DNA of 64,000 nt. It comes from a virus. Its lineage: Duplodnaviria > Caudoviricetes. Position 1 is the stretch's first letter, and the number at the start of each line of letters is the position of its first letter. Positions 27,708 through 64,000 of this stretch are shown piece by piece. The stretch covers positions 32,001 to 96,000 of the IMG/VR virus record IMGVR_UViG_3300029288_000063; one strand, 5' to 3'. Position numbers and translations under genes: made by a program. The notes beneath the pieces were generated by a model that saw only the letters and a program-made list of their open reading frames with translations, did no database searches and was not told the DNA's origin.

Positions 27708-28097
27708 ATGAGCGGCGTAAAGACATCGAGCGATGCGCGGAGTTCCGGCCCGTGGGACAACCTCCCGCGTGGGTGGGACAAGTCCAGCCTCGAAAGCTAC
27801 TGGAAGACCATGACTGGCGAAGTAAAGCACAAAGTCACGAAGTGCATAAAGGACATGGAGGGGAAGATTGATGACCCCGGAGCCTTTTGTGCGTCGTTGG
27901 CTGATAAGGTCGAGGGGAAAGAATGGCGTTCCCGTCGCTCGTTTGTTGCGTCTGATGTAGCCCGAGAAATCGTTTTGATTGCACGTGAACTCTCCGAAGA
28001 ATCCCCAAAAGAAAATAGCCGTGTATCTGCGATTTCCGACCGCGTGGCGAAGAGTCTCGTGTCGGAATTTGAATTAAAAACCCGGAGATGTAGGTAG
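27708..28097 (+). CDS. Hypothetical protein carrying the amphipathic tag (VAREIVLIARELS)
   Basis: AAAGGG RBS; DDPGAFCA motif; tag at 27957-27995. Confidence 0.7.
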   Translation: MSGVKTSSDARSSGPWDNLPRGWDKSSLESYWKTMTGEVKHKVTKCIKDMEGKIDDPGAFCASLADKVEGKEWRSRRSFVASDVAREIVLIARELSEESPKENSRVSAISDRVAKSLVSEFELKTRRCR

Positions 28098-28244
28098 ATT
28101 TGCCCGGAGGCGTAGGTATACGCCTAAAACGGGTCGTTTTGTATTTACCTTTTGTGGTAAGGGTTTATGCGTTTGCTTTGTGGTTCCGCTGTGACGCAAT
28201 AACTATAATAATAGTATGATAGTATCTCTTTATGGGGTTTTAAG

Positions 28245-28538
28245 ATGCCAGTAGACCGTCGTGATGTAGACAAGCATCATCCTTTGAAGGGTGTTCAACG
28301 CCGGAAGGAATTGAAGCGGAAGCGTGTTTACAATCGCAAGCACAAGACGGAATTGAATCACAAGATGGATCGCATAGAGAAAAAAGATTGTTATGGGAAG
28401 CCGAAGGGTTGCAGTCGTGAGAAGCGTCGTTGGCGTTTTCCTAGGACGGGTGGGTTTTCACAAAAACTGGTTAATGACATTATTGCATCGGAGCTTTTGG
28501 TTATTGCGCGTTTGCTTGTTTCGTCGTCGTCCCTTTAG
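28245..28538 (+). CDS. Highly basic protein with C-terminal tag (IASELLVIARLLVS)
   Basis: Arg/Lys-rich; tag at 28482-28523. Confidence 0.65.
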   Translation: MPVDRRDVDKHHPLKGVQRRKELKRKRVYNRKHKTELNHKMDRIEKKDCYGKPKGCSREKRRWRFPRTGGFSQKLVNDIIASELLVIARLLVSSSSL

Positions 28539-28552
28539 GGGAGGGTTTAATT

Positions 28553-28858
28553 ATGCGCCGGTATGAGATGTTAGTTGCGGGTTCCAAGAGTATTCGAGGT
28601 ATTCGTTCTCGTGATTTTTTCAATGGTGATATGTCCTCTGTGTTGGACGAATTATTTCGGACTATTGTGACTGTTCTTGTGTGTGTGTTGGTATTTGGTG
28701 TTGTTGCGTTTGTTGGTATTGATGTAGCGGCTATTTGCGCGATGGTTGGTTTTTGGGGTGTATGGGCGTTGTGGGTGAAGGTTTTGTCTGTGTTTGGGTT
28801 TGTTTTGGCGAACGGATTTGTTTTAGGTTTTATTTTATGGTTGCGTCAGGGGGTCTAA
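28553..28858 (+). CDS. Membrane protein (2 TM)
   Basis: Long hydrophobic stretches; GAGG RBS. Confidence 0.6.
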   Translation: MRRYEMLVAGSKSIRGIRSRDFFNGDMSSVLDELFRTIVTVLVCVLVFGVVAFVGIDVAAICAMVGFWGVWALWVKVLSVFGFVLANGFVLGFILWLRQGV

Positions 28859-28861
28859 AAA

Positions 28862-29176
28862 ATGAGCGAGAACGGTCAGAGTCGTGATAGTGGTTTTGTT
28901 GATTCGTTGCTTTCGACATGGCGGAAGGACGCGTTGGTTTTATCGGGTCATTTTGCGAAGTTATGGGCGGCGAAGTTTATGGATGGTTTACGTGCTCGTG
29001 GGAAAGATTTTGGTGAGGAGTACGGTGAGGGTGCTGAGTGTGTGTATGTGAGTTCGGGGATATCCGCAATGCAGGCGGAGATGTTGAAGGCTGAGAAATC
29101 AGTGGAGCGGAGTTGCAAGGTTCGTTCGGCTGTTGCGGCCGAGATGTTGAAGGTTGCCCGCGAGCTGTTGTCGTAA
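28862..29176 (+). CDS. Hypothetical protein with C-terminal tag (VAAEMLKVARELLS)
   Basis: The tag forms the exact C-terminus. Confidence 0.65.
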   Translation: MSENGQSRDSGFVDSLLSTWRKDALVLSGHFAKLWAAKFMDGLRARGKDFGEEYGEGAECVYVSSGISAMQAEMLKAEKSVERSCKVRSAVAAEMLKVARELLS

Positions 29177-29214
29177 CGACGCAATAATCGAAAATAGGAT
29201 AGATTGGAGTTTCG

Positions 29215-29616: not shown

Positions 29617-29633
29617 TCAGAAGGAGAAGAACC

Positions 29634-30473: not shown

Positions 30474-30482
30474 AGGGGGTTT

Positions 30483-30887: not shown

Positions 30888-30895
30888 GGTTTCGT

Positions 30896-31267: not shown

Positions 31268-31385
31268 AAAATAGAGCAAGGGGACAACACGTAGACTACC
31301 CAGTTCCGAGAATGTCCACGTGACTATCCACCGGGACAAGGGAGTCTCTAATGTTCCCTAAACCTCGTTTATTTAGGAGCAAGAA

Positions 31386-31685
31386 ATGAAAAAGACATTA
31401 GTTGCGAAGGAAATGCTTGTTCTTGCGCGTGCTTTGGTGGCTGCGCCGTCTGAGGGTGAGCGTGTTGTGGTTGTGGATGCGATAGCGAAGACGCGTGAGC
31501 TTCTTTCGTCTTTAGATATGCTGGTAGACAAGATGTCGTACTCGAAGGAGAAAGATATCTCGTTGCAGGCGAAGCGTGTGCGTAGCATCAATACGGTGAA
31601 GCAGGCTATGTCGTCTCTTTCCAATGCGCACAAGGCGTTGGCGGGTGCGTTTCATTTGGGCTATTTTTCGACGTCGAACAGGTGA
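31386..31685 (+). CDS. Hypothetical protein with N-terminal tag (VAKEMLVLARALVA)
   Basis: AGGAG RBS; tag at 31401-31442. Confidence 0.7.
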   Translation: MKKTLVAKEMLVLARALVAAPSEGERVVVVDAIAKTRELLSSLDMLVDKMSYSKEKDISLQAKRVRSINTVKQAMSSLSNAHKALAGAFHLGYFSTSNR

Positions 31686-31688
31686 GTC

Positions 31689-32932: not shown

Positions 32933-34615
32933 ATGGGTGATGCGCCGAGAGTTGTGATTTTGTCGTTTATTCCCCAGTATGGGGAGTTGACGTTTTTCAT
33001 TGGTGACAAGAAGTATGTTGCCAGTGGTGTTTCACCGTTTCACAAGAAACAGGTTGAATATATGTTGAAGCACGGTGCGAATGGACGTGCCATTAACTAC
33101 CTGAAGAAATTCAACCCGGAAAGGCTTGGTCAGAAGTTGGCGAAAGAATTGGTTGGTGTTGCAAGGTTGTTGTTGGCGTCCAGTTCGGAGAAAGAGGTGG
33201 AGCGGTTGCTTCGTGTTGTTTTACGGGGCACACAATGGGCAGGAAAGGCGCACGCCGTTGGTGGCTATGTCCGGGACGAGTTCATGGGTTTGGACGCGAA
33301 AGACTTGGATATCGTCGTTTCTGTGCCGGGCGGGTCTGAGAAGTTGACGAGGTATTTGTTCGGGTTGTTTCCCGGCTCCATAACCAATCCGCACCAAATG
33401 GGCGCGTCATATCCAATTTGGCAGATAACGTTCAGGGATGATATTGTCTTGGACGGTGAGGTCTATAAGACAAAGGGTGCGGTGATTGAGTTTGCTGATA
33501 CCATGAAGGAGCAATTCCCTGATGATACGTCGCGTCAGCGGAGTGTGCAGCCGGGGACGCTTGAGGAAGATATCGAGCGTCGTGATTTCACGACGAATAT
33601 GCTTTTGAAGGACCTTTCGACCGGTGAGATTGTTGATCTTACCGGTGTGAGTAAGAACGACATCGAGAAGGGTATCCTGCGCGGGCACCCCCGTGTTTCG
33701 CTGGATAAGATTTTCAGTGACGACCCATTGCGGATGATTCGACTTGTTCGGTTTCAGTGCAAGTATGGGTGGTCTATTCCGAAATCGGTTTTGCGGACAG
33801 TTCAGCGTAATGCGAGGCGGATTGAGATTGTTTCGGCCGAGCGCATTATGGGTGAGCTGACAAAGGTTATGAAGATTGGTAAATTGTCACAAGCCATCCG
33901 CCTGATGAAAATCACCGGGCTGTTGCAGTACGTGTTGCCGGAGGTTCAGGCGATGGTCGGGGTCAAGCAGCAGAAGGAGTTTCACGCCGAGGGTGATGTG
34001 TTCCGTCACACGTTGGCTGTTTTGCGTAATGCCCCGGCGACGGTTGAAGGGCAGTTGGCGGCGTTGCTTCATGATGTTGGGAAACCGGCGTCGCAGGAGA
34101 TGGTTGGGGAGGCGATTCACTTCTATGGTCACGAAGAGGTTGGGGCTGAGATGGCCTCGGCAATCCTGTATCGCCTGAAGTTTGACGCGGCGACTATCAA
34201 GAAGGTTGTTTCTGTTGTTCGGAGCCACATGCGTCCGTATCACCTTGTGAAGTCGGATGGAAAGGCAATTCGGAAGTTCATTCGAGACCTTGGTGACGAG
34301 GTTGTTGATGCGGTTTTGGATCAAGCCGAGGCGGACGAAAAGGGCAGTTTGCCTGTTGGGGACGACGTGTCGGTTGTGCGGGAAAAGATTCGCAAGGTGC
34401 GTGAATCGCCTGTGCAGGTGAAGAAGTTGCCGGTTTTGAATGGTCGTGAGATTATGTCCATTCTTGGTATTGGTCAGAACGAAAGGGATAGGCTGCCCGA
34501 GATTGGTGAGGCGGGAAAGTTCCTTTTGGATTTGGCGGATGAATATGCGTCTCACGGTGAAGAGTTGAGTAAGGGAGATGCGGCGAAGGCTTTGAGGAAA
34601 AGGATGTCGTTATGA
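32933..34615 (+). CDS. cca: CCA-adding tRNA nucleotidyltransferase with HD domain and N-terminal extension/tag
   Basis: VGGYVRD...KDLD, EEDIERRDFT, DDPLRMIR, HAEGDVFRHT, LLHDVGK, GHE. Confidence 0.93.
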   Translation: MGDAPRVVILSFIPQYGELTFFIGDKKYVASGVSPFHKKQVEYMLKHGANGRAINYLKKFNPERLGQKLAKELVGVARLLLASSSEKEVERLLRVVLRGTQWAGKAHAVGGYVRDEFMGLDAKDLDIVVSVPGGSEKLTRYLFGLFPGSITNPHQMGASYPIWQITFRDDIVLDGEVYKTKGAVIEFADTMKEQFPDDTSRQRSVQPGTLEEDIERRDFTTNMLLKDLSTGEIVDLTGVSKNDIEKGILRGHPRVSLDKIFSDDPLRMIRLVRFQCKYGWSIPKSVLRTVQRNARRIEIVSAERIMGELTKVMKIGKLSQAIRLMKITGLLQYVLPEVQAMVGVKQQKEFHAEGDVFRHTLAVLRNAPATVEGQLAALLHDVGKPASQEMVGEAIHFYGHEEVGAEMASAILYRLKFDAATIKKVVSVVRSHMRPYHLVKSDGKAIRKFIRDLGDEVVDAVLDQAEADEKGSLPVGDDVSVVREKIRKVRESPVQVKKLPVLNGREIMSILGIGQNERDRLPEIGEAGKFLLDLADEYASHGEELSKGDAAKALRKRMSL

Positions 34616-35007
34616 GACCAGCTATAGCAATGCGTTTGTTGCGGTTGGCGAAGGAACTTGTTTCTGCCGACGTGTCGGAACAGGATGTTGCGAAGTTCCT
34701 TTTTGAAAATCCGAACCCGTCCGACAAGGCTGTTCATGATTGGGCGGAAGGTCAGGGTTTGAATGTCCACAAGGTGGAGGAGCATATCTACCGTTTGGCG
34801 ACGAAGTTTGCCCATATTCTGAATGGCGGGTTGGCTGCGAAGAAGGGTTTCAAGAAAGAGGATGCCGACCCGAAGGAATTGGCGATGGGTGTAAAGGTGG
34901 AAATGGAGCACACATCTGATAAAGATGTGGCTGAGGTTATTGCGTTGTCACATTTGGCGGAGTTGAAGAACTACTATTCGCGTCTGAAAAAGATGGAGGG
35001 TGAGTGA
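34612..35007 (+). CDS. DUF5661-like protein with N-terminal tag
   Basis: MGVKVEMEHT...IALSHLAE..YYSRL; tag IAMRLLRLAKELVS. Confidence 0.75.
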   Translation: MRPAIAMRLLRLAKELVSADVSEQDVAKFLFENPNPSDKAVHDWAEGQGLNVHKVEEHIYRLATKFAHILNGGLAAKKGFKKEDADPKELAMGVKVEMEHTSDKDVAEVIALSHLAELKNYYSRLKKMEGE

Positions 35008-35216
35008 TGGACAGGATGATGGTTGCAGAGAAGTTGGTTCGTATGGCGAAGTCCCTTATGGGTCGTGAGTTGAGTGAGAAGCAGAAGGAGTATCAGGAAT
35101 ATTTCCTCGACATGCTCGACAAGTACGGTGTTGAGACACCCGCAGATATGGACGAAGAGACAAAGAAGAAGTTTTTCAGCGAAATCAGCAGTGGTTGGAA
35201 GGGTGGAAAATCATGA
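35004..35216 (+). CDS. Small protein with N-terminal tag (VAEKLVRMAKSLMG)
   Basis: Tag followed by a compact YQEYF...KYGV..PAD...KKKFF...W domain. Confidence 0.7.
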   Translation: MMDRMMVAEKLVRMAKSLMGRELSEKQKEYQEYFLDMLDKYGVETPADMDEETKKKFFSEISSGWKGGKS

Positions 35217-35602
35217 AGAGGACTGCCGTGGTGAGGGAGATTATTGCCCTTGCGAAATCGTTGGTTGCCGCCCCGGTGGCTGCGAAGTTTTCTGCCCGTT
35301 ACAATCAGTGGTCCGGCGGGCGTCAGGCGAACATTTCCGTGGACGTTGAGTTGCGCTTTACCGATGCAGATGCGCGTGATTTGTCGAGTGCCATACTGAG
35401 TGCCGAGGCAAAGGTTGGGAAGATTGCAGAGGCTATTGGTGCGAAAAACAACGAGTGGTATCAGGACGAAGGTTGGTCGTCCGATAACGGGAGGCTGTTT
35501 TCGACGTATCAGATTGAGCCGCGTGACATAAAGGTCGAGTTGCTTCCCGACGTGTTCAAAAAGTTCAATGTTCCGTTGTTTGGGGATTTCATGGACGACT
35601 GA
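35213..35602 (+). CDS. Hypothetical protein with N-terminal tag (VVREIIALAKSLVA)
   Basis: ATGA coupling; tag at 35228-35269. Confidence 0.7.
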   Translation: MKRTAVVREIIALAKSLVAAPVAAKFSARYNQWSGGRQANISVDVELRFTDADARDLSSAILSAEAKVGKIAEAIGAKNNEWYQDEGWSSDNGRLFSTYQIEPRDIKVELLPDVFKKFNVPLFGDFMDD

Positions 35603-50378: not shown

Positions 50379-50975
50379 ATGAGTGGTGAATTTTCAGTAG
50401 CAGATAAAGATGGAGATGTGAGTCTGCCGACCGTTGTCTCACAGTCTTCTGATTTGTCTCAGGTAGACAATGTTGAAGGTGTCATGAAGTTTCGTTCCGA
50501 ATTGGTGAAGAGTTACCATCAAGGCGCGGTTTCTCTTTTGGATCGAATGGAGCGGAACGGGTGCAATAGTACCGAGCAGTTGGTTATGGAGATGATTCGC
50601 GAGGTTATCCGTGAGACTGATAACCTTTTAGGCAACCAACTTATTGCAACTCAAAATGGCAACCTTCGTGATGCATCTATTATATCCAGTAAGCGTGCTG
50701 AGGTTTTTCAGTCTGCTATTAAAGCGATGCAAACGAAACAGGCGATGGAGAAGGACGGAAGTATAGGCCTAGATGTAAATTCTCCTTCCATGACTGTTGT
50801 TTTTCGATTTTTCATGTCGAAAGTCCGTTCTATACTTATGAGCATGAATTTTGATTCGGAACTTTCTGATACCTTTTTTCGCATGTTCAAAGACGTGATG
50901 AAAGATTGGCGAAAAGAGCTGACTGCCGAAATTGCGGCTAATTCTGGCGGTGTAAATATTCAAGGGGAATTATAA
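50379..50975 (+). CDS. Probable terminase small subunit
   Basis: Helical protein coupled (TAATG) to terL; position only. Confidence 0.5.
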   Translation: MSGEFSVADKDGDVSLPTVVSQSSDLSQVDNVEGVMKFRSELVKSYHQGAVSLLDRMERNGCNSTEQLVMEMIREVIRETDNLLGNQLIATQNGNLRDASIISSKRAEVFQSAIKAMQTKQAMEKDGSIGLDVNSPSMTVVFRFFMSKVRSILMSMNFDSELSDTFFRMFKDVMKDWRKELTAEIAANSGGVNIQGEL

Positions 50976-52807
50976 TGGGTCGTAAGCCAAAGCTTCCTGT
51001 CCGAGATTTTATGGAAGACCTTGCCAATTCATTTATCTCAGGGAATAATGGGGATGCTGTTGATATTATCACCTTTGTTCAAGCTCCTTGGGGTTTGAAT
51101 TTTGTTTTGCGTCCGGTTCAGATTTTCATTCTGAAGGCGTTGTATGGTCTGAAACTCAATGATACCGACAGGACGATTGAGGTTCCAGACGTTACAAACG
51201 ACAAGGTTCTCTATACGCTTTCGGAGACAGAGTTTCATCGCTGGCTGTTGGACGAAAAACGTTGCAACACGGCGGAGATTGGTGAGGGAAAATCGTTCCG
51301 AGAGTTGGTCTTAGTGATTGGAAGAAGAGGTGGCAAGTCGACCATTGCTTCGATTATTTCTGCATATGAGATGTATCGCCTTATCAAGCTTGGCGATCCG
51401 GCGAAGTATTATGGCCAGTTGCCGGACACTGTCATTTCGATTTGTAATGTTGCGCCGACAGACGATCAAGCGGATATCGTTTTCACGTCTATATTGAATA
51501 TGGCGTCCAAGTCTCTATGCATGCGAGATAGAGTTCTTAATCAGACCCAAACATATTTCAACTTAATGACTGATAAAGACGTGGCATCGTTTGGGAAAAA
51601 GAACGCCTCCATTGTTGTTGTCGCTGGTGGTTGTTCGTCTGGTGCGTTGCGTGGTCGAAGCAACATTGGTGTTATTATGGATGAGATGGCGTTCTTTCTC
51701 GACAACGGCGGACGTTTTGCCGGTGATGCTGTTTATAAGGCGTTAACGCCGTCTGTTGGCACATTTGGCAAAGACGGGAAAATCATTTGCATCTCGTCGC
51801 CGTATGCGAAATACGGTGCGTTCTACAATCGGTATGTGCAAAGCTTTGAGGAACAAGAAACAACGTTGATGCTTAAAATGTATACGTCGTTGGCCAACCC
51901 ATCCATTGACCCGGTGATTCTCAAGACAGAGCGTCGTCGTGATAAAATCAATTTTTTGTGTGAATTTGGCGGGGAGTTCTCCGACTCGGTCGTTGCGTGG
52001 ATTGACGATGAGACCACTTTCAAAAAGTGTGTTGTGCAGCGTCCGGCACCGACAAAGGGTGTTACAAACGAGCAATATTTTATGGGTGTAGACCTTTCGG
52101 CGAAGAACGACGGAACGGCAGTTGCCATTGTGCATCGGGACACCAAAACCAAGAAAATCATCCTCGATTACGCTGATGTTTGGTTTCCGGGCGAGTCCGA
52201 CGTGTGGGAGTCGAACGATTCCATATACAGAGAATGTACGCGTTATCAGAATTTGGAGTTTCTTCGTGTTGCTGATATAGCGCGTGATATTCAGGAGTTG
52301 AGTAAATGGTTCCCAATCAGGGATGGGTGGTTTGACTTGTGGTCTGGACATGCGTTGTTGGAACAACTGCATAACATCGGGATGAAACAGTTGCGCGTTG
52401 AGCAGGTAACGGACACATTGAACAGCAGTATTTATACGCTCCTGAAGTCTCTTTATATGGAGGGTATGGTTGAGCTGTTTGACCATCCTGTTTTGGTTCC
52501 TGAACTTCTGAGTTTGGAGGCGGAACACAAAGCGAAAAACAAGGTTAAGGTTCGTGCGCCGAACAAGCGTGGGGCGCATGATGATATCTCTGATGCGTAT
52601 GCCCGTGCAGTCTGGGCGTGCTTCAATTGGGACCAAGACCGCCAAGTAAACCGCACTGTTGTTGCTGGTGGTTTGTCGCCGGTTGATGTCAGTGGACAAT
52701 CGTTCAACATGCACCGTATTAGTAAGTTACGGAGTCATGGAATGGGTTCGCGAGATATGGCGTCAATGTCTATGAGTGGAAGAGCGTCCTTGAAGAGGGG
52801 TAGGTAA
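50975..52807 (+). CDS. terL: Terminase large subunit
   Basis: Walker A GRRGGKS, Walker B IMDE, ISSP, nuclease GVDLS..NDGT...HDDISDA. Confidence 0.92.
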   Translation: MGRKPKLPVRDFMEDLANSFISGNNGDAVDIITFVQAPWGLNFVLRPVQIFILKALYGLKLNDTDRTIEVPDVTNDKVLYTLSETEFHRWLLDEKRCNTAEIGEGKSFRELVLVIGRRGGKSTIASIISAYEMYRLIKLGDPAKYYGQLPDTVISICNVAPTDDQADIVFTSILNMASKSLCMRDRVLNQTQTYFNLMTDKDVASFGKKNASIVVVAGGCSSGALRGRSNIGVIMDEMAFFLDNGGRFAGDAVYKALTPSVGTFGKDGKIICISSPYAKYGAFYNRYVQSFEEQETTLMLKMYTSLANPSIDPVILKTERRRDKINFLCEFGGEFSDSVVAWIDDETTFKKCVVQRPAPTKGVTNEQYFMGVDLSAKNDGTAVAIVHRDTKTKKIILDYADVWFPGESDVWESNDSIYRECTRYQNLEFLRVADIARDIQELSKWFPIRDGWFDLWSGHALLEQLHNIGMKQLRVEQVTDTLNSSIYTLLKSLYMEGMVELFDHPVLVPELLSLEAEHKAKNKVKVRAPNKRGAHDDISDAYARAVWACFNWDQDRQVNRTVVAGGLSPVDVSGQSFNMHRISKLRSHGMGSRDMASMSMSGRASLKRGR

Positions 52808-53785
52808 ATGTTGCGTCGCGGACAGTTGTTGACGAACCCAATTCATGAAGTCAATCACGGAACGACGGCAATAGAACGTATCGTGTCGGGTGCGTTGTTT
52901 GATTTCATCGGTATGCTAACCACACTGGAAGAACCAATTGTTTTGAGTGAACGTCACAACCCGACCCGTTTGGTTGATATGTTGGTGGATTGGGCATATA
53001 ACAAACGTGGTCTGAACACCTTTGACGCGGACGTTTATGGGTGGCAGGACAAAATTCACGTCGCACATGAATTGGTACGTGTTGCGCGTATTTTGTCAGG
53101 TGAAGAGGAAGATGTCAAAGCCGAAAAAAAACGTGCGGAAAAGAAGGTCAGGGCTGTGAAGACTCTGGCTGAAAACATTACCCGTCTTCGTCACAACGTA
53201 ACCCGTGACTTACAGAGTGATGACGAACGTACCCGGATGACTGCCCTTGCTATCGCCCTGATGGATAAGACTGCGGAACGTGTTGGGAATGACGAGTCTG
53301 CACAGAACGGTCATGTGGGTGTGACTGGCTTCAAGAAGAAGCATATTTCTACAGATGGCAACCGGGTGCTTTTGAAGTATATTGGGAAGTCCGGTGTGGA
53401 ACATGAGAAGTCTTTTTCTGATAAGCGTATCTCGGACATAATTCGTGGTCGTCTTGAGCGTTGCACCCCGAATGACTTTTTGTTGTCGTGTTCTGATGGG
53501 TACAAGGTTCGTGCCGACCGAGTCAACCGGTACTTGGAAGACTTCGGAATTACAGCCAAGGACATTCGTGGGTATTCTGCCAATCGTCTGATGATTGAGG
53601 CTTTGCAGCGTCAGAGTGGCTCTCAAGAAGAGGATGAGCGAAAGAAGGTTTTTCTTTCCGTTCTGAAGCGTGTTGCCGAAGCGGTCGGACATGGTCCGCA
53701 GATGCTTCGTAATAGCTATTTGATTCCGTCTTTAGAGACGTCGTGGGTTAAGCAGGGGAAAATTATCAAGCTGACCGAAGAATAG
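52808..53785 (+). CDS. DNA topoisomerase IB catalytic domain with N-terminal extension and tag
   Basis: ERVGND, IGKSG, TAKDIR, AVGH, RNSY (catalytic R-K-R-H-Y pentad). Confidence 0.88.
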   Translation: MLRRGQLLTNPIHEVNHGTTAIERIVSGALFDFIGMLTTLEEPIVLSERHNPTRLVDMLVDWAYNKRGLNTFDADVYGWQDKIHVAHELVRVARILSGEEEDVKAEKKRAEKKVRAVKTLAENITRLRHNVTRDLQSDDERTRMTALAIALMDKTAERVGNDESAQNGHVGVTGFKKKHISTDGNRVLLKYIGKSGVEHEKSFSDKRISDIIRGRLERCTPNDFLLSCSDGYKVRADRVNRYLEDFGITAKDIRGYSANRLMIEALQRQSGSQEEDERKKVFLSVLKRVAEAVGHGPQMLRNSYLIPSLETSWVKQGKIIKLTEE

Positions 53786-54956: not shown

Positions 54957-57900
54957 ATGGCCAAGCGGAAAGTAAGCGCGAAATCCGAACCGGTTGTTGC
55001 CGCCTCGAAAGACGGCATTATACGTGTGCCAGTAACGAGTGCGTCGGCACGGACAGGTAAGGTTGACCCGGTGAAAACGAAGATTGCCGCGAAGCAGGAG
55101 CGGTTCCAGCGTATCGCGTCCGGCGTTGCAAATGGGATGTATCGTGAGGCAGGCATGATGATGTCCACCTCGCCGAATGCAACCGGCACGTGGGGTTCAG
55201 GTAGCCTTCCTGCGTTCCGAACGTCCTATGCGTCGGGAAACACGATGGTCGGAGGTGGAACGACAGATATTCCGCCGTACTTCCAAATCATGAACGACAA
55301 AAACGGCGGGTTGATTTACTGGCCGGTATCGTTGCGTGAGAAGTATGAGTGGTATCGATATTGGGCGAGGTGCTTCACAAACCCCAACGTCATGATTACA
55401 CGAGAAGATGGAACAGAAGCACCGCTGTGCTCTTTCAAAAAGGGTGATCGGGTTATCAACGGAATCGGCGGGGTTACTGAGGTTTCAGAGGTAACGACTC
55501 AAAAATATGAGGGTGCTGTTGTTCGCCTTGATGTCGAGGCTAATCGGTGGAACGATATTGAGACGACACCAGAACATCCATTTTTTGTTCTTCGTTCTGA
55601 GAATGTTTGTCGGCACCACAACCGGATTACAGACGAGGACGGTGTGGAGCATCGCAAGACGAGCGTTGAGATTAACTTTTTGCCGGAGTGGGTTGAGGCG
55701 AAGGATATTCGTGTTGGGGATATGTTGATTGTTCCTTCAACGAGTAAATCCTTCGAGTCAGTTATGTCTGTTGAGCGTGCGAGGCTTGTTGGTTATTATG
55801 CGGCAGAGGGCAATGTAAACTTTGATCGAAACGGAGAACCAGAAGCTGTCACGTGGAGCCTTGGGACTCACGAGGACGATTTGATCGAAGAGATAAAGAG
55901 CCTGTGCGTTACAGAGCTTGGTTGTGTTCCTTCCACTTACAATTACCCAGAACGTGAGTCTTGTACCTCTCTGAGGGTGTGGGATAGGGAATTTGCAAAA
56001 TGGGTCGTTGAAAACTGCGGGGTTGGTTCTCATTCCAAGAAGTTTTCTCGGCTCATTTTTGAGGCGGACGATGAGACTGTTCGCCATATTGTTGGCTGCT
56101 GGTTGAACGGTGATGGAAATCGGGACGATGCGGAGGCTGAAGGTCAGGTTGATGGGACAACCTGTTCGTTTGATATGGCAAACCAATTGTTCCTGATGAT
56201 GGTGCGAGTTGGACTTGCGCCAGCTAAAAGGGTGAAAGATGTGACGGTTTTTGGTTGCGGAGAGAAGTCTGGAAACAAGGCTTGTCGAATCTTTTTGCCT
56301 CCGATGTTTGCCAACAAGATCGTTGAGTACTTCAAGTGGGATGGGTGTGTGAAGTCTCATCGTCATCGAAAGTACAACCACGATGGGAACATGTTGTTGC
56401 CAGTTCGAGGGATAAAGCTTCGTGAGTTTTCTGGTGTTATTTGGAACCTCTCAACGAGTGGCTCTTCGTACGAAGAACGCACTTTCTTGGTTCACGGGAT
56501 GGTCACCCACAACACTGACGCCTTTATTGGGCGCGGGTTGGAGCTTCTGGCCGACCTTCCAATGTCACGCATCTCTTTAAACATGCCGAAGATGGAGAAG
56601 AAGCCCAAAAAGCTCCGCGATGAGATTTACGCCTTCTTCACGGGGATGTGCGAGAACATCGGGCTGTTTCGCAGGTTGCAGGAAAACCTGTGGGAGTACA
56701 ACCTGATTGGGAACGTGTACATCTATCACGAATGGAACAGCAAGCGCAAGATGTGGGAGCGCATCGTGACGTTGCCGCCTGAAGAGGTGAGTGTTTTTCA
56801 GTATCCTTTCCAAGACAACGCTCGCGTTGAATACCGTCCGGAGGCACTCATGCGGGTTGTTCAAGCCGCAGATGCTGGCAATATGGATGGTGATGATATC
56901 TCTCAAAGAATATTTGCCGGTATTCCGAAGGATGTCGCAGAGATGATTCGTGGGCAGGGATGCGTGATCTTTGATAGCTCACCTATTATTGATAGCAAGG
57001 TTGGGTCGTTTGTTTACCATATGGCAAGGCGTCGGTCGCCATATCTTGACCTCGGGGCTTCTGTGTTGGAGCGTGTTCTTGTTCCAATGCTGATGAAGGA
57101 GCACTTCCGCTATACCCAGCTTGGTTTGGCGTCGCGTAATATGACTCCGAAAAATAAGGTTTCCGCTCCGGGGTTGACACAGCCTGAGCTTGACGACCTT
57201 CGGATGCAGATGGATTTGTCCTATATGGACCCCGATTATTCCATCGTGACCAACTACGATTGGGACTGGGAACAGATTGGTGCCGACGGACGTTTGCTTG
57301 ATTTGCAGGGCGAATATGAAGCTATTGAAAATCAGGTGTTTTCGGCTATGGGTGTGACACGTGAATTGATGACGGGTGAAGGCTCGTGGTCAGGCAACCG
57401 CGTCACCATCGAGATTATCAACACAATGTTCCTCCTGACCCGTGAGATGCTTCGTGAGTATGTAGAGAACTTTTTGTTTCGCCCTGTAGCCATTGCACAT
57501 GGATGGTATGAAGAGGACAAGAATGGTGTCAGGGAATACTGGTATCCGAAGCTTGGGTTCAATCGCCTGTCAATTCGTGATAATTCGGAAGTTTTTGACA
57601 GTCTCTTCCAGCTCTACATGAAGGGTTCTGTCCCGGTCGATGTTATGTACGAGCTGTTCAACCTCGACCCGGAAGCCATGCATGAAAAAATGCACTCTGA
57701 TGTGTTTACGTTGAAAGATTCAACATTCAACCGGCTTCTGGAAGAGGTCAACTTTTCTGTTGGTCAAAAAATTGTTGAATCGACTGACGTTATGCAGAGG
57801 GTTGCTGATTACCTTGGTTTGAAGGTTTCGGACAATCCTCCTGCCAGTGATGAAGATGGTGGATTCGGCGGTGGTGGGTTTGATGGTGGCTTTGAATCCG

Positions 57901-58037
57901 GTGGGGGTGAAGAACAGCCGGAGACCCAAGAAGAATCCGCCCCCGAGGAAAGTGCGAGTGAGCCGGATGAGGAGTCTGTCGGTCTTGATGACTTGTCGAG
58001 CTTGTCGGATGTTTTGCTTGATAATAACGAGGAGTGA
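54957..58037 (+). CDS. Probable portal protein with LAGLIDADG intein
   Basis: Downstream of terL; ~645-aa extein with WEYNLIGNVYIY, GASVLER and IENQVFSAMGV portal-like blocks; acidic tail. Confidence 0.72.
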   Translation: MAKRKVSAKSEPVVAASKDGIIRVPVTSASARTGKVDPVKTKIAAKQERFQRIASGVANGMYREAGMMMSTSPNATGTWGSGSLPAFRTSYASGNTMVGGGTTDIPPYFQIMNDKNGGLIYWPVSLREKYEWYRYWARCFTNPNVMITREDGTEAPLCSFKKGDRVINGIGGVTEVSEVTTQKYEGAVVRLDVEANRWNDIETTPEHPFFVLRSENVCRHHNRITDEDGVEHRKTSVEINFLPEWVEAKDIRVGDMLIVPSTSKSFESVMSVERARLVGYYAAEGNVNFDRNGEPEAVTWSLGTHEDDLIEEIKSLCVTELGCVPSTYNYPERESCTSLRVWDREFAKWVVENCGVGSHSKKFSRLIFEADDETVRHIVGCWLNGDGNRDDAEAEGQVDGTTCSFDMANQLFLMMVRVGLAPAKRVKDVTVFGCGEKSGNKACRIFLPPMFANKIVEYFKWDGCVKSHRHRKYNHDGNMLLPVRGIKLREFSGVIWNLSTSGSSYEERTFLVHGMVTHNTDAFIGRGLELLADLPMSRISLNMPKMEKKPKKLRDEIYAFFTGMCENIGLFRRLQENLWEYNLIGNVYIYHEWNSKRKMWERIVTLPPEEVSVFQYPFQDNARVEYRPEALMRVVQAADAGNMDGDDISQRIFAGIPKDVAEMIRGQGCVIFDSSPIIDSKVGSFVYHMARRRSPYLDLGASVLERVLVPMLMKEHFRYTQLGLASRNMTPKNKVSAPGLTQPELDDLRMQMDLSYMDPDYSIVTNYDWDWEQIGADGRLLDLQGEYEAIENQVFSAMGVTRELMTGEGSWSGNRVTIEIINTMFLLTREMLREYVENFLFRPVAIAHGWYEEDKNGVREYWYPKLGFNRLSIRDNSEVFDSLFQLYMKGSVPVDVMYELFNLDPEAMHEKMHSDVFTLKDSTFNRLLEEVNFSVGQKIVESTDVMQRVADYLGLKVSDNPPASDEDGGFGGGGFDGGFESGGGEEQPETQEESAPEESASEPDEESVGLDDLSSLSDVLLDNNEE
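55371..56513 (+). mobile_element. Cis-splicing intein with LAGLIDADG endonuclease (381 aa)
   Basis: CFTNP...TPEHPF...GYYAAEG...GCWLNGDG...IWNL...VTHN|T. Confidence 0.92.
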
Positions 58038-60004: not shown

Positions 60005-60012
60005 GAGATTTT

Positions 60013-60586: not shown

Positions 60587-60656
60587 CTCCGGGCTACGGT
60601 ATGTTGTTGTTTTGTATCAAGATACAGTGTCCGCACAGATTATAAGGTAGAAAACC

Positions 60657-61451
60657 ATGAAACGTCGTGTTGCTAAAGAAATCCTTCGCATAGCGAAGTC
60701 CATCGTGTCTGGTGCATCTGAGTTTTCCGTGCTTATTCACGAGTCTGATGCCAAGAAGGCATTTGATAAGGCGGTTTCATATGCGCAGTACGATGCAGGT
60801 CATGGTGGGTATACCGGAACGATTGCAGAGAAGGCCGGGTATGGTTTCAAAATCGTATCTGAACCTGTGCCGCCCTCCGTTGCTAAATCAATAGCGCGTG
60901 AAAAGATGGACGACAACGACAAGTGGGGTCCTGCGTTTGCCATTCCGGTTACAGATGATTATGAGGTCAAGATTGTTCCTGTGAAGTTGAAAGTCGAGGC
61001 GGATTCATCTGAGGACGCCGTGAAGTTGGTCTTTCAGAAGATTCAAGAGAAGTATCGTAAGTTTGAAGTGTCGTGGAAAGAAAAACCACAAACCACTGTG
61101 TTGAAACCGACTCGTTGGGACATAAAGGTGACGAAGAAAACAGCACCCAAGTTGGTGCCAGAGTTTGGATTCACACTGGACCGGCCGTTTCGTGGTTCCA
61201 AAAACATGAGGACACCCAAGGAAGCAATTGATGGGGCGAAGCGCCTCATTGAAGAGTTGGTGAAGGGTGGTGGTGAGCTTCCGGAATCTGTGAAGTTTTT
61301 TGTGTCGGCTCGTCCTGTTGAGTTTATGCTTGGAGAGGTTTCCAACAAGGGCGGAAAGAAGTCAACCTTTGAGGTGGTGGGTAATGTTTCTGTCTTGTTG
61401 AAGTCGAATCTCGTGAAGAGCTATTTGTTCTTTGGTTTGGCCGCTGACTGA
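60657..61451 (+). CDS. Hypothetical protein with N-terminal tag (VAKEILRIAKSIVS)
   Basis: GHGGYTGTIAEK...DKWGPA...FFGLA block. Confidence 0.75.
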   Translation: MKRRVAKEILRIAKSIVSGASEFSVLIHESDAKKAFDKAVSYAQYDAGHGGYTGTIAEKAGYGFKIVSEPVPPSVAKSIAREKMDDNDKWGPAFAIPVTDDYEVKIVPVKLKVEADSSEDAVKLVFQKIQEKYRKFEVSWKEKPQTTVLKPTRWDIKVTKKTAPKLVPEFGFTLDRPFRGSKNMRTPKEAIDGAKRLIEELVKGGGELPESVKFFVSARPVEFMLGEVSNKGGKKSTFEVVGNVSVLLKSNLVKSYLFFGLAAD

Positions 61452-61458
61452 GGTTTGT

Positions 61459-61782: not shown

Positions 61783-61988
61783 AGATTGCCTGTTCGTGCG
61801 GTATTGACGACGAGTTTCTCGAAAAACACACCCTGAGAAACGAGTCGCATGCTGGTGTCGAGTCGTTGGCGGACGCCGCGAAGGAGCTTTTGTCTGTAGC
61901 GGAGCTTCTGGTTGGTGAGCCTGTGATCGATTACTCCAAGTATTTGAATCATACACCGTCTATGGGTGGTGAGTATTATGCCTCGTGA
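61779..61988 (+). CDS. Small protein with internal tag (AAKELLSVAELLVG)
   Basis: GTGA coupling. Confidence 0.5.
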   Translation: MKIACSCGIDDEFLEKHTLRNESHAGVESLADAAKELLSVAELLVGEPVIDYSKYLNHTPSMGGEYYAS

Positions 61989-62427
61989 TGTGAAGTTTGA
62001 TAGGGCAGCATGGGTTGCGGCAATGGAGAAAAAGGCTCCAAAGCGTCGTGCTGTGAGAACTCGGGTCAAACCCGGTGAATTGCGTGGGACGCTTGGTGCG
62101 TCGCGGAATTTCCGCTTGGTTATTCGCGAATCAGCGTTGCGTCAGGTATTGGTTATGATTACCTACAAAAAAACTTCGACAGATGTGACTAATAAATACT
62201 TAGTTGAACCATATAGTTACCGTTCTAGGAAGTTAAAGGTCGGGCGCAGGAAAATGTTGTTTGCGTACGATACGCACAAATTGCCGAACCCGGACAGCAA
62301 CCGCTCAAAAGCGGAAGCGTTACGATCCAAAAAACCGTCTATCAAGGGTTTTGCAATGAGCAATATCAAAAAAGCCGTTATTACGGACACCAAGTTCCGC
62401 CCCCGGTGGCCGGTCGAGATTCGCTAA
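61978..62427 (+). CDS. WYL-domain-like protein
   Basis: ITYKK...VEPYS...LFAYD...KGFAMSNI. Confidence 0.65.
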   Translation: MPRDVKFDRAAWVAAMEKKAPKRRAVRTRVKPGELRGTLGASRNFRLVIRESALRQVLVMITYKKTSTDVTNKYLVEPYSYRSRKLKVGRRKMLFAYDTHKLPNPDSNRSKAEALRSKKPSIKGFAMSNIKKAVITDTKFRPRWPVEIR

Positions 62428-62513
62428 TTCAACTCTTGTATATTTTTTTTATACTGAACTTTTGTCTGAGGGACACCTTAAACAAATGTCCTTGATGTTT
62501 CGTTTTTTTTTGG

Positions 62514-63191
62514 ATGGATGGGTCGACCATGATGAGACGAGGGACGCTTGAAAGCTTGCTGTCTAATCCTTCAGTTTTAACTGACCGATTTTTGGAAATG
62601 ACCCGGATTTTTCGTCCGGGTGATGTCGTTGAAAGTGCCTTAACACCGGGATTGAATTATGGTGTGGTCGAGGATGTAAACGACAAAACTCGCAAAGTCA
62701 TGGTGGTGTGGAATAGCGGGATTCAAGACCAAGTTGACCAAAATGACATTCAGCTTGTTCCAAATATTCGTCCAGAGATTGAAGACCGCATTCGTGCCGC
62801 TCTCCTTCCGCTGAATGGACGTCGTATGGCGGGTGATCAAGAAGACGCAATTATTCCACCTAACTACATATCAGATCCAGACTTACACGGCATAACAGAA
62901 AGTCGTGGTGGTGGGTTCTCTATTATGCAAAACCTGCAAGAAGACCTCCACAAAGAGAGCATTGAAGACGCGAAGACGGGCAGCGTTGATGGGATGCGTT
63001 CCCGGCGTGCTGTTTACCACAAGCAACGTGGCAGGGTGTACCAGCGTTCCCGAGTTGAGGTTGAAAACGAAACCCTGAGGTGTCCTCGCTGCGGCGAGGA
63101 TGGTATGGAGAAAGAATCGTACACGAAGGGTATTTATATGTTTCGTTGTCCGTCTTGTGGTTGGAAAATCACTACAGACAAATTGTTGTAG
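62514..63191 (+). CDS. Hypothetical protein with C-terminal Zn ribbon
   Basis: CPRC...CPSC. Confidence 0.7.
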   Translation: MDGSTMMRRGTLESLLSNPSVLTDRFLEMTRIFRPGDVVESALTPGLNYGVVEDVNDKTRKVMVVWNSGIQDQVDQNDIQLVPNIRPEIEDRIRAALLPLNGRRMAGDQEDAIIPPNYISDPDLHGITESRGGGFSIMQNLQEDLHKESIEDAKTGSVDGMRSRRAVYHKQRGRVYQRSRVEVENETLRCPRCGEDGMEKESYTKGIYMFRCPSCGWKITTDKLL

Positions 63192-63203
63192 GAGGGTGAA
63201 ACC

Positions 63204-63464
63204 ATGTGTGACAAGAGTGAATATGACCGGGATGTTTCAAGTGTCACATCCGGCGTGAAGGAAATCGTTGGAATCCTGAAGCCGTTTTTGGTCGCCGCTC
63301 TGATTATCGTTGCTGGTGTTTTGCAGTATAAGGGGTTAATCGACTCGGCGACGTTCAATTTGATTATCTCTGTTCTTGGTGGAGGTGTTGTGGCGTCTGT
63401 TCAGACTGCCCAGCGTCGTCTTGAACGGAAAACGGACAGGGCTATTCGGTCGCTTGGGAAGTGA
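63204..63464 (+). CDS. Small 2-TM membrane protein (holin-like)
   Basis: Two hydrophobic helices and a basic C-terminal tail. Confidence 0.5.
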   Translation: MCDKSEYDRDVSSVTSGVKEIVGILKPFLVAALIIVAGVLQYKGLIDSATFNLIISVLGGGVVASVQTAQRRLERKTDRAIRSLGK

Positions 63465-63511
63465 ATCTGTTTGTGTTGGTTTTCGTTTAACGAAAAGAAG
63501 AGGGTAGGAAT

Positions 63512-64000
63512 ATGAATCGAGAGATGATTGCCAAGCAACTGGTTGTTCTTGCGAAAGAGTTGATGGGTTCAGGAGCCGATGCCGGTCGTGATATGATTCG
63601 TTCGGCGAAGAAGGTGTTGGAGCTGCGTGCACGTCGCGCCCAGATGGTTGTTGCGTCTGAAAAGGCGAGCTACAATCGCTATGCCGCCCGTCAGGTTCTT
63701 GCTTTCAACGTTCCACAGAAAGCCGAAACCCTCGCCAAGATGATGAAGGTTCACGGGTTCACCATCAACGACGATGGGAAGATTGCCTATTGGCCGTTTG
63801 GTGCCGGTGGGATGATTGATTACTCCAAGCAGCCGACCACTGTCGGTGGCGGCGTGTCATACAACGACTTTCCGACTGCGATTCGTCAGATGCAGCACAT
63901 GGTGACGGGTGCTGACGAAGAGATTGCCAAGATGCGCGAGCTATTGGATGCGACCGCACGTTTCCGGAAAGACATTCGCGAATCTGCCGGTACTCCGGAC
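63512..64000 (+). CDS. Hypothetical protein with N-terminal tag (IAKQLVVLAKELMG); runs off the window end
   Basis: AGGA RBS; open from ATG 63512 to 64000 without a stop; absent from the ORF track. Confidence 0.7.
   Translation, partial: MNREMIAKQLVVLAKELMGSGADAGRDMIRSAKKVLELRARRAQMVVASEKASYNRYAARQVLAFNVPQKAETLAKMMKVHGFTINDDGKIAYWPFGAGGMIDYSKQPTTVGGGVSYNDFPTAIRQMQHMVTGADEEIAKMRELLDATARFRKDIRESAGTPD

What the first reader, a model, noticed from the sequence alone, without database searches (positions are those of the whole stretch)
27957..63568. Portable 14-aa amphipathic tag on >=13 unrelated proteins: candidate capsid-targeting/cargo-delivery system
Seen: the same helix occurs at 27957 VAREIVLIARELSE, 28482 IASELLVIARLLVS, 29132 VAAEMLKVARELLS*, 30501 IAGELMVLARELIG, 31401 VAKEMLVLARALVA, 33137 LAKELVGVARLLLA (CCA enzyme), 34624 IAMRLLRLAKELVS, 35022 VAEKLVRMAKSLMG, 35228 VVREIIALAKSLVA, 53060 VAHELVRVARILSG (topo IB), 60669 VAKEILRIAKSIVS, 61875 AAKELLSVAELLVG and 63527 IAKQLVVLAKELMG, with a degenerate copy at 59750 IADRIVLAARGLQV. 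Consensus: [VIL]-A-x-E-[LIM]-[LVIM]-x-[LVIM]-A-[RK]-x-L-[VLIM]-[SAG]. It sits at N-termini, C-termini or domain junctions of proteins that share nothing else. The codons differ between copies, so it is conserved as peptide and not as a DNA repeat. I found no full copy in the 1-27 kb genes. Established: T4 internal proteins use a short N-terminal capsid-targeting sequence that the prohead protease removes. Inference: this is a modular address label that docks cargo onto the scaffold/prohead, possibly cleaved after the final small residue, so that enzymes are packaged and ejected into the host. An alternative is a docking motif for another phage hub protein.
Basis: partly seen in the sequence, partly recalled or inferred. 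Interest (0 to 1): 0.92.

Follow-up and report, generated by a model that had tools for sequence, protein, structure and literature searches.

The report
Scaffold-derived helix tag on phage proteins
A clade of uncultured giant phages puts one 14-residue helix on dozens of unrelated, fast-changing proteins and two enzymes, and the same helix ends the small scaffold-like protein of the head, so it is most likely an address label that loads cargo into the assembling capsid, though no packaging has been shown.

Summary
All 13 full copies translate as written. A profile built from them finds 30 copies in the 253-kb phage genome, all in the coding frame. Shuffled proteomes give none and the other five frames give one weak hit.

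The tag is portable:
- It sits on a CCA-adding enzyme, a topoisomerase IB, a DUF5661 protein and many orphan proteins.
- Orthologous topo IBs occur with and without it (13 of the 120 best homologues carry it).

It defines a clade. Sixty-five related loci (capsid protein ≥86% identical) hold 132 tags. Fifteen sister-clade loci and a 485-kb sister phage hold none on cargo.

New here: the one universally tagged protein is the small acidic, all-helical protein encoded right after the prohead protease. The tag is its extreme C-terminus and its most conserved part.

Tagged genes are variable inserts around head genes. They follow the same promoter-like motif as the terminase, portal, protease and capsid genes.

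Best reading (about 0.5): cargo copies the scaffold's docking helix to enter the procapsid. This is analogous to the T4 capsid-targeting sequence and to 80alpha scaffold/CpmB mimicry. The binding partner, any cleavage and actual packaging are all untested.

This scan has found similar helix tags before, on other giant-phage DNA.

The parts
27957..27998 (+). tag copy, internal (residue 119 of a 164-aa ORF, 27603-28097)
   Evidence: 27.1 bits
28482..28523 (+). tag copy, C-terminal (4 residues before the stop of ORF 28245-28538)
   Evidence: 32.6 bits
29132..29173 (+). tag copy, exact C-terminus of ORF 28862-29176
   Evidence: 27.5 bits
30501..30542 (+). tag copy, N-terminal, on ORF 30483-30887 (orphan)
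31401..31442 (+). tag copy, N-terminal (Met five residues before), on ORF 31386-31685
33137..33178 (+). tag copy at residue 69 of the CCA-adding enzyme (ORF 32933-34615; PolyA_pol head starts at residue 108). Orthologues in relatives start with the tag.
34624..34665 (+). tag copy, N-terminal, on the DUF5661 protein (ORF 34612-35007)
35022..35063 (+). tag copy, N-terminal, on a 70-aa ORF (35004-35216; phrog_28651)
35228..35269 (+). tag copy, N-terminal (Met five residues before), on ORF 35195-35602
50975..52807 (+). large terminase (context: start of the head module)
   Evidence: phrog_9, phrog_2
53060..53101 (+). tag copy at residue 85 of topoisomerase IB (ORF 52808-53785). It lies between an 84-aa helical extension and the catalytic core. 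Predicted helix 79-96.
54957..58037 (+). portal protein (context)
   Evidence: phrog_16240
60669..60710 (+). tag copy, N-terminal, on a 264-aa orphan (60657-61451) between the portal and the protease
61875..61916 (+). tag copy, internal (residue 38 of a 74-aa ORF, 61764-61988)
63527..63568 (+). tag copy, N-terminal, on a 268-aa orphan that starts at 63512 and runs past the window end. The prohead protease follows it.
It scores below threshold and is not kept as a tag in most relatives, so I do not count it.
27189..27230 (+). hydrophobic look-alike lacking the E4 and K/R10 positions, probably a membrane segment. Not counted.

Best explanation
The tag is a portable two-heptad amphipathic docking helix. 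Its consensus is [VI]-A-x-E-L-[VL]-[RK]-[LIV]-A-[KR]-x-L-[LV]-[AGS], and it usually follows a five-residue start of the form M-[DN]-[RK]-x-[KR].

It is the same helix that forms the extreme C-terminus of the small acidic, all-helical protein encoded directly after the prohead protease. That is the scaffold position. A degenerate copy is conserved in a second acidic head protein.

Proposed mechanism (inferred, not shown): cargo proteins bearing the helix occupy the site that the scaffold helix uses during prohead assembly. That site is either the inner face or N-arm of the capsid protein, or the scaffold core itself. Unrelated proteins are thereby built into the procapsid, including a CCA-adding enzyme, a topoisomerase IB and many fast-turning-over orphans. 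They are then available for delivery with the DNA.

Shown here:
- the tag is statistically real;
- it is portable;
- it is restricted to one clade;
- it is identical with the scaffold-position C-terminal helix;
- it is predicted to be helical;
- tagged genes lie among head genes and in their promoter-motif territory.

Not shown: the binding partner, packaging, cleavage and ejection.
For: (1) Reality. There are 30 in-frame copies, against 0 in shuffles and 1 weak hit in the other five frames.

(2) Portability.
- The bodies belong to unrelated families.
- Topo IB orthologues are tagged in G000 and G004 but not in G001, L009 or LR745208.
- Only 13 of the 120 best topo IB homologues carry the tag.
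- CCA-enzyme orthologues start with it.

(3) Scaffold link.
- Gene order is protease, then a 212-aa acidic protein with two tags, then a 185-aa acidic protein, then a 381-aa acidic repeat protein with a conserved degenerate tag, then a decoration-like protein, then the capsid protein.
- In relatives the ~77-131-aa orthologue ends with the tag 0-2 residues before the stop.
- Three of its four invariant columns are tag positions A2, L5 and A9.
- AlphaFold2 predicts an all-helical protein with no compact fold (pTM 0.25). The C-terminal helix is its best-defined part (pLDDT 87).

(4) Clade test. There are 132 tags in 65 loci with capsid protein >=86% identical. There are 0 in 15 loci at 68-77% identity. 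LR745208 (485 kb) has none on cargo.

(5) Accessory nature. In the 59-106 kb region, 3 of 18 tagged genes have a homologue in relatives, against 29 of 45 untagged genes (p=0.0008).

(6) Expression class. For 24 of 28 tagged genes the nearest upstream promoter-like motif is the T-run+ATA type, as for terminase, portal, protease and capsid. This holds for 108 of 319 untagged genes (p~9e-8). The sigma28-like motif class avoids the tagged regions.

(7) Shape. In topo IB the tag is a helix (79-96) between a linker with pLDDT below 50 and the catalytic domain. Tags are amphipathic (mean hydrophobic moment 0.51, against 0.27 for random 14-mers) and are followed by acidic linkers.

(8) Precedents.
- T-even internal proteins share only an N-terminal leader that directs packaging (PMC12373910, PMC3012670).
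- The first 30 residues of P1 DarB direct a reporter into the capsid (PMC9024508).
- The 80alpha scaffold binds the capsid N-arm through a C-terminal amphipathic helix with an Ala that cannot be enlarged, and SaPI1 CpmB copies that helix (PMC5644958).
Against: - There are no virion proteomics, no structure of a complex and no multimer model, so the partner is unidentified.
- A CCA-adding enzyme and a topoisomerase have obvious jobs in the cytoplasm. Some topo IB orthologues lack the tag, so packaging is not needed for their core function.
- The capsid N-arm is conserved in both the tagged and the untagged sister clade. Only 4 positions discriminate the clades and none is in the N-arm. The capsid protein therefore shows no change tied to the appearance of cargo tags.
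- The scaffold copies often lack the E4 and K/R10 residues that cargo copies keep. The two may not bind in exactly the same way.
- No sharp protease-type motif follows the tag.
- The promoter classes are sequence motifs, not mapped promoters. Tagged genes are clustered, so the Fisher tests overstate independence.
- 'Scaffold' is assigned from position, composition and predicted shape. No family match supports it.
Confidence: 0.5

Rival explanations
1. The helix docks its carriers onto a hub that is not the capsid. The hub would be a phage or host protein, or a cytoplasmic assembly or condensate. The head protein that carries the helix would be just one more client.
For: The tagged enzymes (CCA-adding enzyme, topo IB) act on cytoplasmic substrates. 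No partner was identified. The capsid protein shows no clade-specific change. Tags occur at N-terminal, C-terminal and internal positions, as in general short docking motifs.
Against: The only universally tagged protein lies between the protease and the capsid gene, and the tag is its most conserved part. Tagged genes crowd around head genes and share their promoter-like motif. No candidate hub gene emerged: the clade-specific conserved genes near the head module have no family match.
Confidence: 0.2
2. The helices bind each other. The multi-copy acidic head proteins and the cargo would co-assemble into a helical-bundle core. The tag would then be a self-association module rather than a ligand of the capsid shell. 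Cargo would still end up in the head.
For: The tag is an exact two-heptad repeat (h-A-p-p-L-h-p, twice) with Ala at heptad spacing. An acidic and a basic residue flank the hydrophobic face. Scaffold-position proteins carry 1-3 copies separated by acidic linkers.
Against: Fourteen residues is short for a stable coiled coil. In most relatives the scaffold-position protein has a single copy, at its extreme C-terminus, which is the arrangement of coat-binding helices (PMC5644958). AlphaFold2 and the Atlas model give no bundle for these proteins.
Confidence: 0.15
3. The tag is a recognition handle for an enzyme or chaperone, for example an exosite for the prohead protease or a degradation/handling signal. 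It would mark proteins for processing rather than for location.
For: The tagged scaffold-position gene lies directly after the protease. In the sister phage LR745208 a tag-like helix is at the protease's own C-terminus. Scaffold proteins are normal protease substrates (established knowledge).
Against: No conserved cleavage-type motif lies at a fixed distance from the tag. C-terminal tags that end the protein leave nothing to release. The protease has no recognisable peptide-binding domain.
Confidence: 0.08
4. The tag is a membrane-binding amphipathic helix that takes the proteins to the cell membrane.
For: The hydrophobic moment is high (0.51 against 0.27). Net charge is slightly positive. The tag sits at protein termini.
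Against: Two near-invariant Ala at heptad spacing (141/154 and 152/154) and a conserved Glu argue for tight helix-helix packing rather than lipid insertion. The tag is followed by strongly acidic linkers. It is shared with an acidic head protein.
Confidence: 0.04
5. There is no tag function. The proteins would be diverged paralogues that kept an ancestral helix, or the helix would be a compositional accident.
For: Same-codon use among copies is slightly above expectation (1014 against 809). In G004 several neighbouring genes have very similar leaders, so some copies do arise by duplication or recombination.
Against: The bodies belong to different Pfam families. Orthologues occur with and without the tag. 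Shuffles and other frames give none. A 485-kb related phage has none.
Confidence: 0.03

Closest known systems
Capsid targeting sequence (CTS) of T-even internal proteins (Ip1-3, Alt) and the N-terminal packaging signal of P1 DarB (PMC3012670, PMC12373910, PMC9024508)
   Same: A short leader is the only thing shared by otherwise unrelated proteins. The carriers are encoded in variable loci and differ between related phages. Most copies are N-terminal, and the genes lie among head genes.
   Different: I saw no sequence resemblance (the T4 leader is recalled from memory and was not aligned). Here the tag is a 14-residue two-heptad helix that also works at C-termini (15%) and inside proteins (17%). 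It is shared with the scaffold-position protein. It sits on housekeeping-type enzymes. Packaging and cleavage are unproven here.
C-terminal 'helix-and-hook' of the 80alpha scaffolding protein, copied by SaPI1 CpmB (PMC5644958); P22 scaffold C-terminal helix-turn-helix
   Same: A small helical protein of the head module ends in an amphipathic helix that is its key conserved element. A small residue (Ala) in that helix is conserved. An unrelated protein carries the same helix to use the same site.
   Different: There is no RIIK-type hook after the helix. The mimicry is on the order of 30 proteins per genome instead of one, and it appears to be cargo rather than a size-determining competitor. Contact with the capsid N-arm is not shown.
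Encapsulation peptides of bacterial microcompartments (PMC4594438, PMC11157265, PMC12339742) and encapsulin cargo-loading peptides
   Same: A short amphipathic helix at either end of cargo enzymes is joined by a flexible linker, and it is portable between unrelated enzymes.
   Different: There is no microcompartment shell gene in the genome. The presumed container is a virus procapsid. There is no homology.

Membership tests
T4-type capsid targeting sequence (CTS) | One short leader shared by otherwise unrelated proteins | tested here: met
   The bodies are unrelated Pfam families or orphans. Orthologues occur with and without the tag.
T4-type capsid targeting sequence (CTS) | Strictly N-terminal leader | tested here: not met
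   Of 154 distinct tags, 105 are N-terminal, 23 C-terminal and 26 internal.
T4-type capsid targeting sequence (CTS) | Carriers encoded in variable (hyperplastic) loci | tested here: met
   3 of 18 tagged genes have homologues in relatives, against 29 of 45 untagged genes in the head region. Tag content differs between loci.
T4-type capsid targeting sequence (CTS) | Leader removed by the prohead protease at a defined site | tested here: inconclusive
   No sharp motif follows the tag, only enrichment of E/D. No proteomics are available.
T4-type capsid targeting sequence (CTS) | Carriers present in proheads/virions and ejected | not testable with these tools
   The phage is uncultured and no virion data exist.
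T4-type capsid targeting sequence (CTS) | Sequence homology to the T4 leader | not tested
   No T4 sequence was fetched. From memory the leaders are unlike each other.
Scaffolding protein with C-terminal coat-binding helix (80alpha gp46 / CpmB type) | Encoded between the prohead protease (or portal) and the major capsid protein | tested here: met
Scaffolding protein with C-terminal coat-binding helix (80alpha gp46 / CpmB type) | Small, acidic, helical, without a compact fold | tested here: met
   Sequences. AlphaFold2 predicts all helix with pTM 0.25. The Atlas model has pLDDT 0.46.
Scaffolding protein with C-terminal coat-binding helix (80alpha gp46 / CpmB type) | Amphipathic helix at the extreme C-terminus as the most conserved element, with a conserved small residue | tested here: met
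   The tag ends 0-2 residues before the stop. Invariant columns are A87, L90 and A94. Ala is found at tag positions 2 and 9 in 141 and 152 of 154 tags.
Scaffolding protein with C-terminal coat-binding helix (80alpha gp46 / CpmB type) | RIIK-type hook after the helix | tested here: not met
   The proteins end with the helix.
Scaffolding protein with C-terminal coat-binding helix (80alpha gp46 / CpmB type) | Helix contacts the capsid protein N-arm; protein is required for assembly | not testable with these tools
   No multimer prediction or experiment was available. The N-arm is conserved in both clades, which neither supports nor excludes contact.
Scaffolding protein with C-terminal coat-binding helix (80alpha gp46 / CpmB type) | Match to a known scaffold family | tested here: not met
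   No Pfam or PHROG scaffold family matches.
Microcompartment encapsulation peptide | Terminal amphipathic helix plus a flexible linker on cargo enzymes | tested here: met
Microcompartment encapsulation peptide | BMC shell proteins encoded alongside | tested here: not met
   PF00936 is absent from the genome, and the control genomes do match.

The most novel reading that the evidence does not exclude
A whole clade of giant phages runs a scaffold-mimicry cargo system. Any protein given the 14-residue C-terminal helix of the head scaffold, at either end or between domains, is built into the procapsid. The phage would thereby deliver a changing set of about 30 proteins, including a tRNA CCA-adding enzyme and a topoisomerase IB, into the host with its DNA.
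Probability: 0.4. Interest if true: 0.78.

Novelty: new variant of a known kind. Interest (0 to 1): 0.62.

Why it matters
If the helix is a capsid address label, it offers three things:
- A sequence-readable list of likely injected proteins for an uncultured giant-phage clade. About 30 per genome, mostly orphans that are good candidates for first-minute counter-defence factors.
- Two unexpected candidate virion enzymes: tRNA 3'-end repair and DNA relaxation.
- A very small tag (14 residues, usable at N- or C-terminus or internally) for loading foreign proteins into HK97-fold shells of the phage-G type.

It would also suggest how such systems may arise. The docking helix of the scaffold would be copied onto other genes. 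Here that origin can be placed between two sister clades whose capsid proteins are 70% identical.

Tried and rejected
- **Family searches on carriers and conserved head-module neighbours.** Most returned nothing, so no receptor candidate emerged.
- **ESM Atlas on the 212-aa protein.** Only low-score hits and a disordered model.
- **PDB sequence search with the protease.** Nothing.
- **PHROGs on the scaffold-position family.** No scaffold family matched.
- **Cleavage motif after the tag.** None found, only an acidic bias.
- **Capsid-protein change linked to the tag clade.** Only 4 discriminating positions, none in the N-arm.
- **De novo search for a different terminal tag in LR745208.** None found, while the same method recovers the tag in this genome.
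- **Profile search of Tunturi_5 and LR745208 through the genome search.** Nothing found. I trusted this only after my own scan of all of LR745208. Only two stretches of Tunturi_5 were scanned directly.
- **DNA-repeat explanation.** Rejected.
- **The copies at 59750 and 27189.** Rejected as tags.
- **Phage-nucleus import signal.** Considered but not tested. The capsid is of the phage-G type, but chimallin was not searched for.
- One search was a mistaken call and carries no information.

Full report
**Setting**

The window is bases 32001-96000 of a 253,102-bp linear IMG/VR virus record, about 75% complete. Almost all genes are on the + strand. The capsid protein is of the phage-G type: phrog_2522 at E 4e-53, and PDB 6WKK gp27 at E 2e-60.

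The nearest named phages are:
- the uncultured 485-kb LR745208 (capsid protein 70% identical, terminase 33%);
- the cultured Tunturiibacter phage Tunturi_5 (48% and 28%).

- A position-specific matrix built from the 13 full copies and iterated to convergence gives 28 hits in my gene set. Residue-shuffled proteomes give 0 at 15 bits or more.
- A six-frame scan gives 30 copies. All are on the + strand and in the coding frame. The other five frames together give a single 15-bit hit.
- The copies cluster at genome 59-67 kb (9), 85 kb (topo IB), 92-98 kb (5), 103-106 kb (4), 156 kb (1), 188-195 kb (5) and 210-214 kb (4).
- There are none at 0-59, 106-156 or 214-253 kb.
- Identical residues share a codon 1014 times, against 809 expected. 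The signal is at peptide level, with at most a little shared DNA ancestry.
- The 'degenerate' copy at 59750 fails the threshold and is not a tag in most relatives.
- A hit at 27189 lacks both charged positions and looks like a membrane segment.

**Anatomy**

Across the clade I collected 154 distinct occurrences. The consensus is [VI]-A-[SRK]-E-L-[VL]-[RK]-[LIV]-A-[KR]-[ES]-L-[LV]-[AGS].

- Ala is found at position 2 in 141 of 154 and at position 9 in 152 of 154. Leu is found at position 5 in 133 and at position 12 in 119.
- This is an exact two-heptad repeat (h-A-p-p-L-h-p, twice).
- The mean hydrophobic moment is 0.51, against 0.27 +/- 0.14 for random 14-mers.
- 105 copies are N-terminal, most often with the start Met exactly five residues before the tag (53 cases; typical start M-[DN]-[RK]-x-[KR]).
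- 23 copies end the protein and 26 are internal.
- The ten residues after the tag are enriched in E and D. There is no sharp motif.
- In the AlphaFold2 model of the topo IB (79-sequence alignment, mean pLDDT 84.5), the tag lies in helix 79-96 (pLDDT about 72). A linker with pLDDT below 50 precedes it, and a two-residue break separates it from the high-confidence catalytic domain.

**Portability**

The carriers include:
- a CCA-adding enzyme (PolyA_pol, PolyA_pol_RNAbd, HD);
- a topoisomerase IB;
- a DUF5661 protein;
- a protein with a weak ChaB match;
- many proteins with no family.

Topo IB orthologues next to the terminase gene are tagged in this phage and in G004. Those in G001, L009 and LR745208 start just after the place where the tag would be. 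Among the 120 best topo IB homologues in the 5.8-billion-protein set, 13 carry the tag and 107 do not. Most of the 13 are among the closest relatives. CCA-enzyme orthologues in three relatives start with the tag.

The 68-aa and 84-aa stretches in front of the tag on this phage's CCA enzyme and topo IB have no counterpart in the IMG/VR relatives. The topo IB extension is kept in four close metagenomic homologues (61-69% identical, full coverage). It is therefore probably real coding sequence fused upstream of a formerly N-terminal tag.

**Clade distribution**

Twelve terminase-anchored and 80 capsid-anchored IMG/VR loci were fetched.

| Set | Sequence scanned | Tags, coding strand | Tags, other strand |
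|---|---|---|---|
| 65 loci, capsid protein 86-93% identical | 711 kb | 132 | 1 |
| 15 loci, capsid protein 68-77% identical | 132 kb | 0 | 0 |

The whole of LR745208 (485 kb) gives three weak hits at 12 bits or more. Only one of them lies in the head module. A de novo search for any shared terminal 12-mer recovers the tag as the top seed in this genome and finds nothing comparable in LR745208. Cargo tagging is therefore a derived character of one clade.

**The link to the head**

The gene order is:
1. terminase
2. tagged topo IB
3. two conserved unknowns
4. portal
5. a 656-aa protein
6. a variable stretch with three tagged orphans
7. prohead protease (phrog_18299)
8. a 212-aa acidic protein with two tags
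9. a 185-aa acidic protein
10. a 381-aa acidic repeat protein with a degenerate tag that is conserved in relatives
11. a decoration-like protein
12. the capsid protein
13. a LAGLIDADG/methylase insert
14. four tagged orphans

In the relatives, the gene right after the protease encodes a 77-131-aa acidic protein whose last residues are the tag, 0-2 residues before the stop. I found at least 17 distinct orthologues. Longer versions carry up to three copies.

In their alignment the invariant columns are one Asn of a DQN motif plus tag positions A2, L5 and A9. The first 100 residues of this phage's 212-aa protein align with them, and its first tag aligns with their C-terminal tag.

AlphaFold2 predicts four helices and no compact fold (pTM 0.25). 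The C-terminal helix is the best-defined part (pLDDT 87). This matches a scaffolding protein in position, composition and shape, although no scaffold family matches it.

In the sister clade this small protein is mostly missing. A tag-like helix lies at the C-terminus of the LR745208 protease, and the degenerate helix of the 381-aa family is kept. The hydrophobic face therefore looks older than its spread onto cargo.

**Accessory nature and expression class**

In the region well covered by relatives (59-106 kb), 3 of 18 tagged genes have a homologue, against 29 of 45 untagged genes (p = 0.0008). Tagged genes are variable inserts between conserved core genes, and different relatives hold different sets at the same places.

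Earlier scan notes on this genome pointed to two promoter-like motifs, and both are strand-biased:
- T-run+ATA: 28 on the + strand against 4 on the - strand.
- A sigma28-like CGAT box: 38 against 6.

The CGAT class fills 3-56, 108-124 and 170-186 kb and avoids the tagged regions. The T-run class lies before head genes and before the tagged clusters. The nearest upstream motif is the T-run type for 24 of 28 tagged genes, and for terminase, portal, protease and capsid. It is so for 108 of 319 untagged genes (p about 9e-8). These are motifs, not mapped promoters, and clustering inflates the test.

**Mechanism**

The most economical reading is that cargo proteins carry a copy of the scaffold's docking helix and so enter the assembling procapsid.

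Precedent exists for each element:
- T-even internal proteins share only a leader that directs packaging, and they differ widely between phages (PMC12373910, PMC3012670).
- The first 30 residues of P1 DarB take a reporter into the capsid (PMC9024508).
- The 80alpha scaffold grips the capsid N-arm with a C-terminal amphipathic helix in which an Ala cannot be enlarged. SaPI1 CpmB copies this helix to use the same site (PMC5644958).

I could not establish which partner reads the tag. The capsid N-arm is conserved in both clades and shows no clade-specific change. I could not establish whether the helices bind each other, whether the tag is cut off, or whether anything is packaged. I put this reading at about 0.5. 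The rivals are a non-capsid hub (0.2), helix-helix co-assembly within the scaffold core (0.15, which would still put cargo in the head), a processing handle (0.08), membrane binding (0.04) and no function (0.03).

**Novelty**

The kind of system (an address peptide for capsid cargo, and scaffold-helix mimicry) is known. I found the following in no paper:
- a two-heptad helix usable at either end or between domains;
- its identity with the scaffold-position C-terminus;
- its presence on a CCA-adding enzyme and a topo IB;
- its appearance between two sister clades whose capsid proteins are 70% identical.

Earlier notes of this scan describe similar shared helix tags in other giant phages, and one of them also places the helix on a scaffold-position protein. 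The phenomenon is therefore recurrent in the scan, though on other DNA and with other sequences. Other first-stage notes on this same genome had listed the copies outside my window. My profile found them independently.

Noticed in passing
window 58034-60004 (656-aa protein after the portal), residues ~575-640: Only the C-terminal ~70 residues are conserved across all relatives. They form a basic motif of the form RGLQV-RRKDKDLM-x-DTGG-x-SK ... KPPRDD, while the rest of the protein diverges. Function unknown.
   Followed up: partly
genome 97349-99822 (L002:1349-3822) and relatives: The small acidic scaffold-position protein and the 381-aa acidic repeat protein both begin with M-S/K-R-x-R-[ILM]-T. 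The 381-aa family ends with L-W-x(3)-PDVS-x(2)-F in both clades. The 381-aa protein also holds about seven AKKGA-D/E repeat units. These could be further assembly or protease signals.
   Followed up: no
L038 (LR745208), protein ending about 2.7 kb upstream of the capsid gene: In the sister clade a tag-like helix sits at the C-terminus of the long prohead protease. Two other sister loci have a different amphipathic helix at the same protease end. This may be the protease's own capsid-entry signal.
   Followed up: partly
whole genome; e.g. window 27635, 31019, 48732, 62432 (T-run+ATA) and window 4950, 11688, 13733, 17574, 19629, 23224, 35647 (CGAT box): Two strand-biased promoter-like motif classes divide the genome into territories. 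The CGAT class covers the tRNA and accessory regions. The T-run+ATA class covers head, tail-like and tagged genes.
   Followed up: partly
window 52808-53059 and 32933-33136: The topo IB and the CCA enzyme of this phage carry 84-aa and 68-aa extensions in front of the tag that relatives lack. The topo IB extension is predicted helical at low confidence and is kept in four close metagenomic homologues, one on a 344,634-bp contig (P0002).
   Followed up: partly
L009:18688-18840: A relative has a 51-codon ORF consisting of a tag plus the first conserved residues of the CCA enzyme, about 1 kb upstream of the full tagged CCA gene. It is apparently a duplicated 5' piece.
   Followed up: no
genome 101524-103512 (L002:5524-7512), just after the capsid gene: A 662-aa ORF combines a LAGLIDADG endonuclease domain with weak DNA-methylase matches. 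A homologue lies at the same place in LR745208.
   Followed up: no
topo IB homologues P0012, P0015, P0018 and others: Many metagenomic relatives of this topo IB are fused to an SprT-like domain (PF10263), and a few to a phage integrase domain (PF00589).
   Followed up: no
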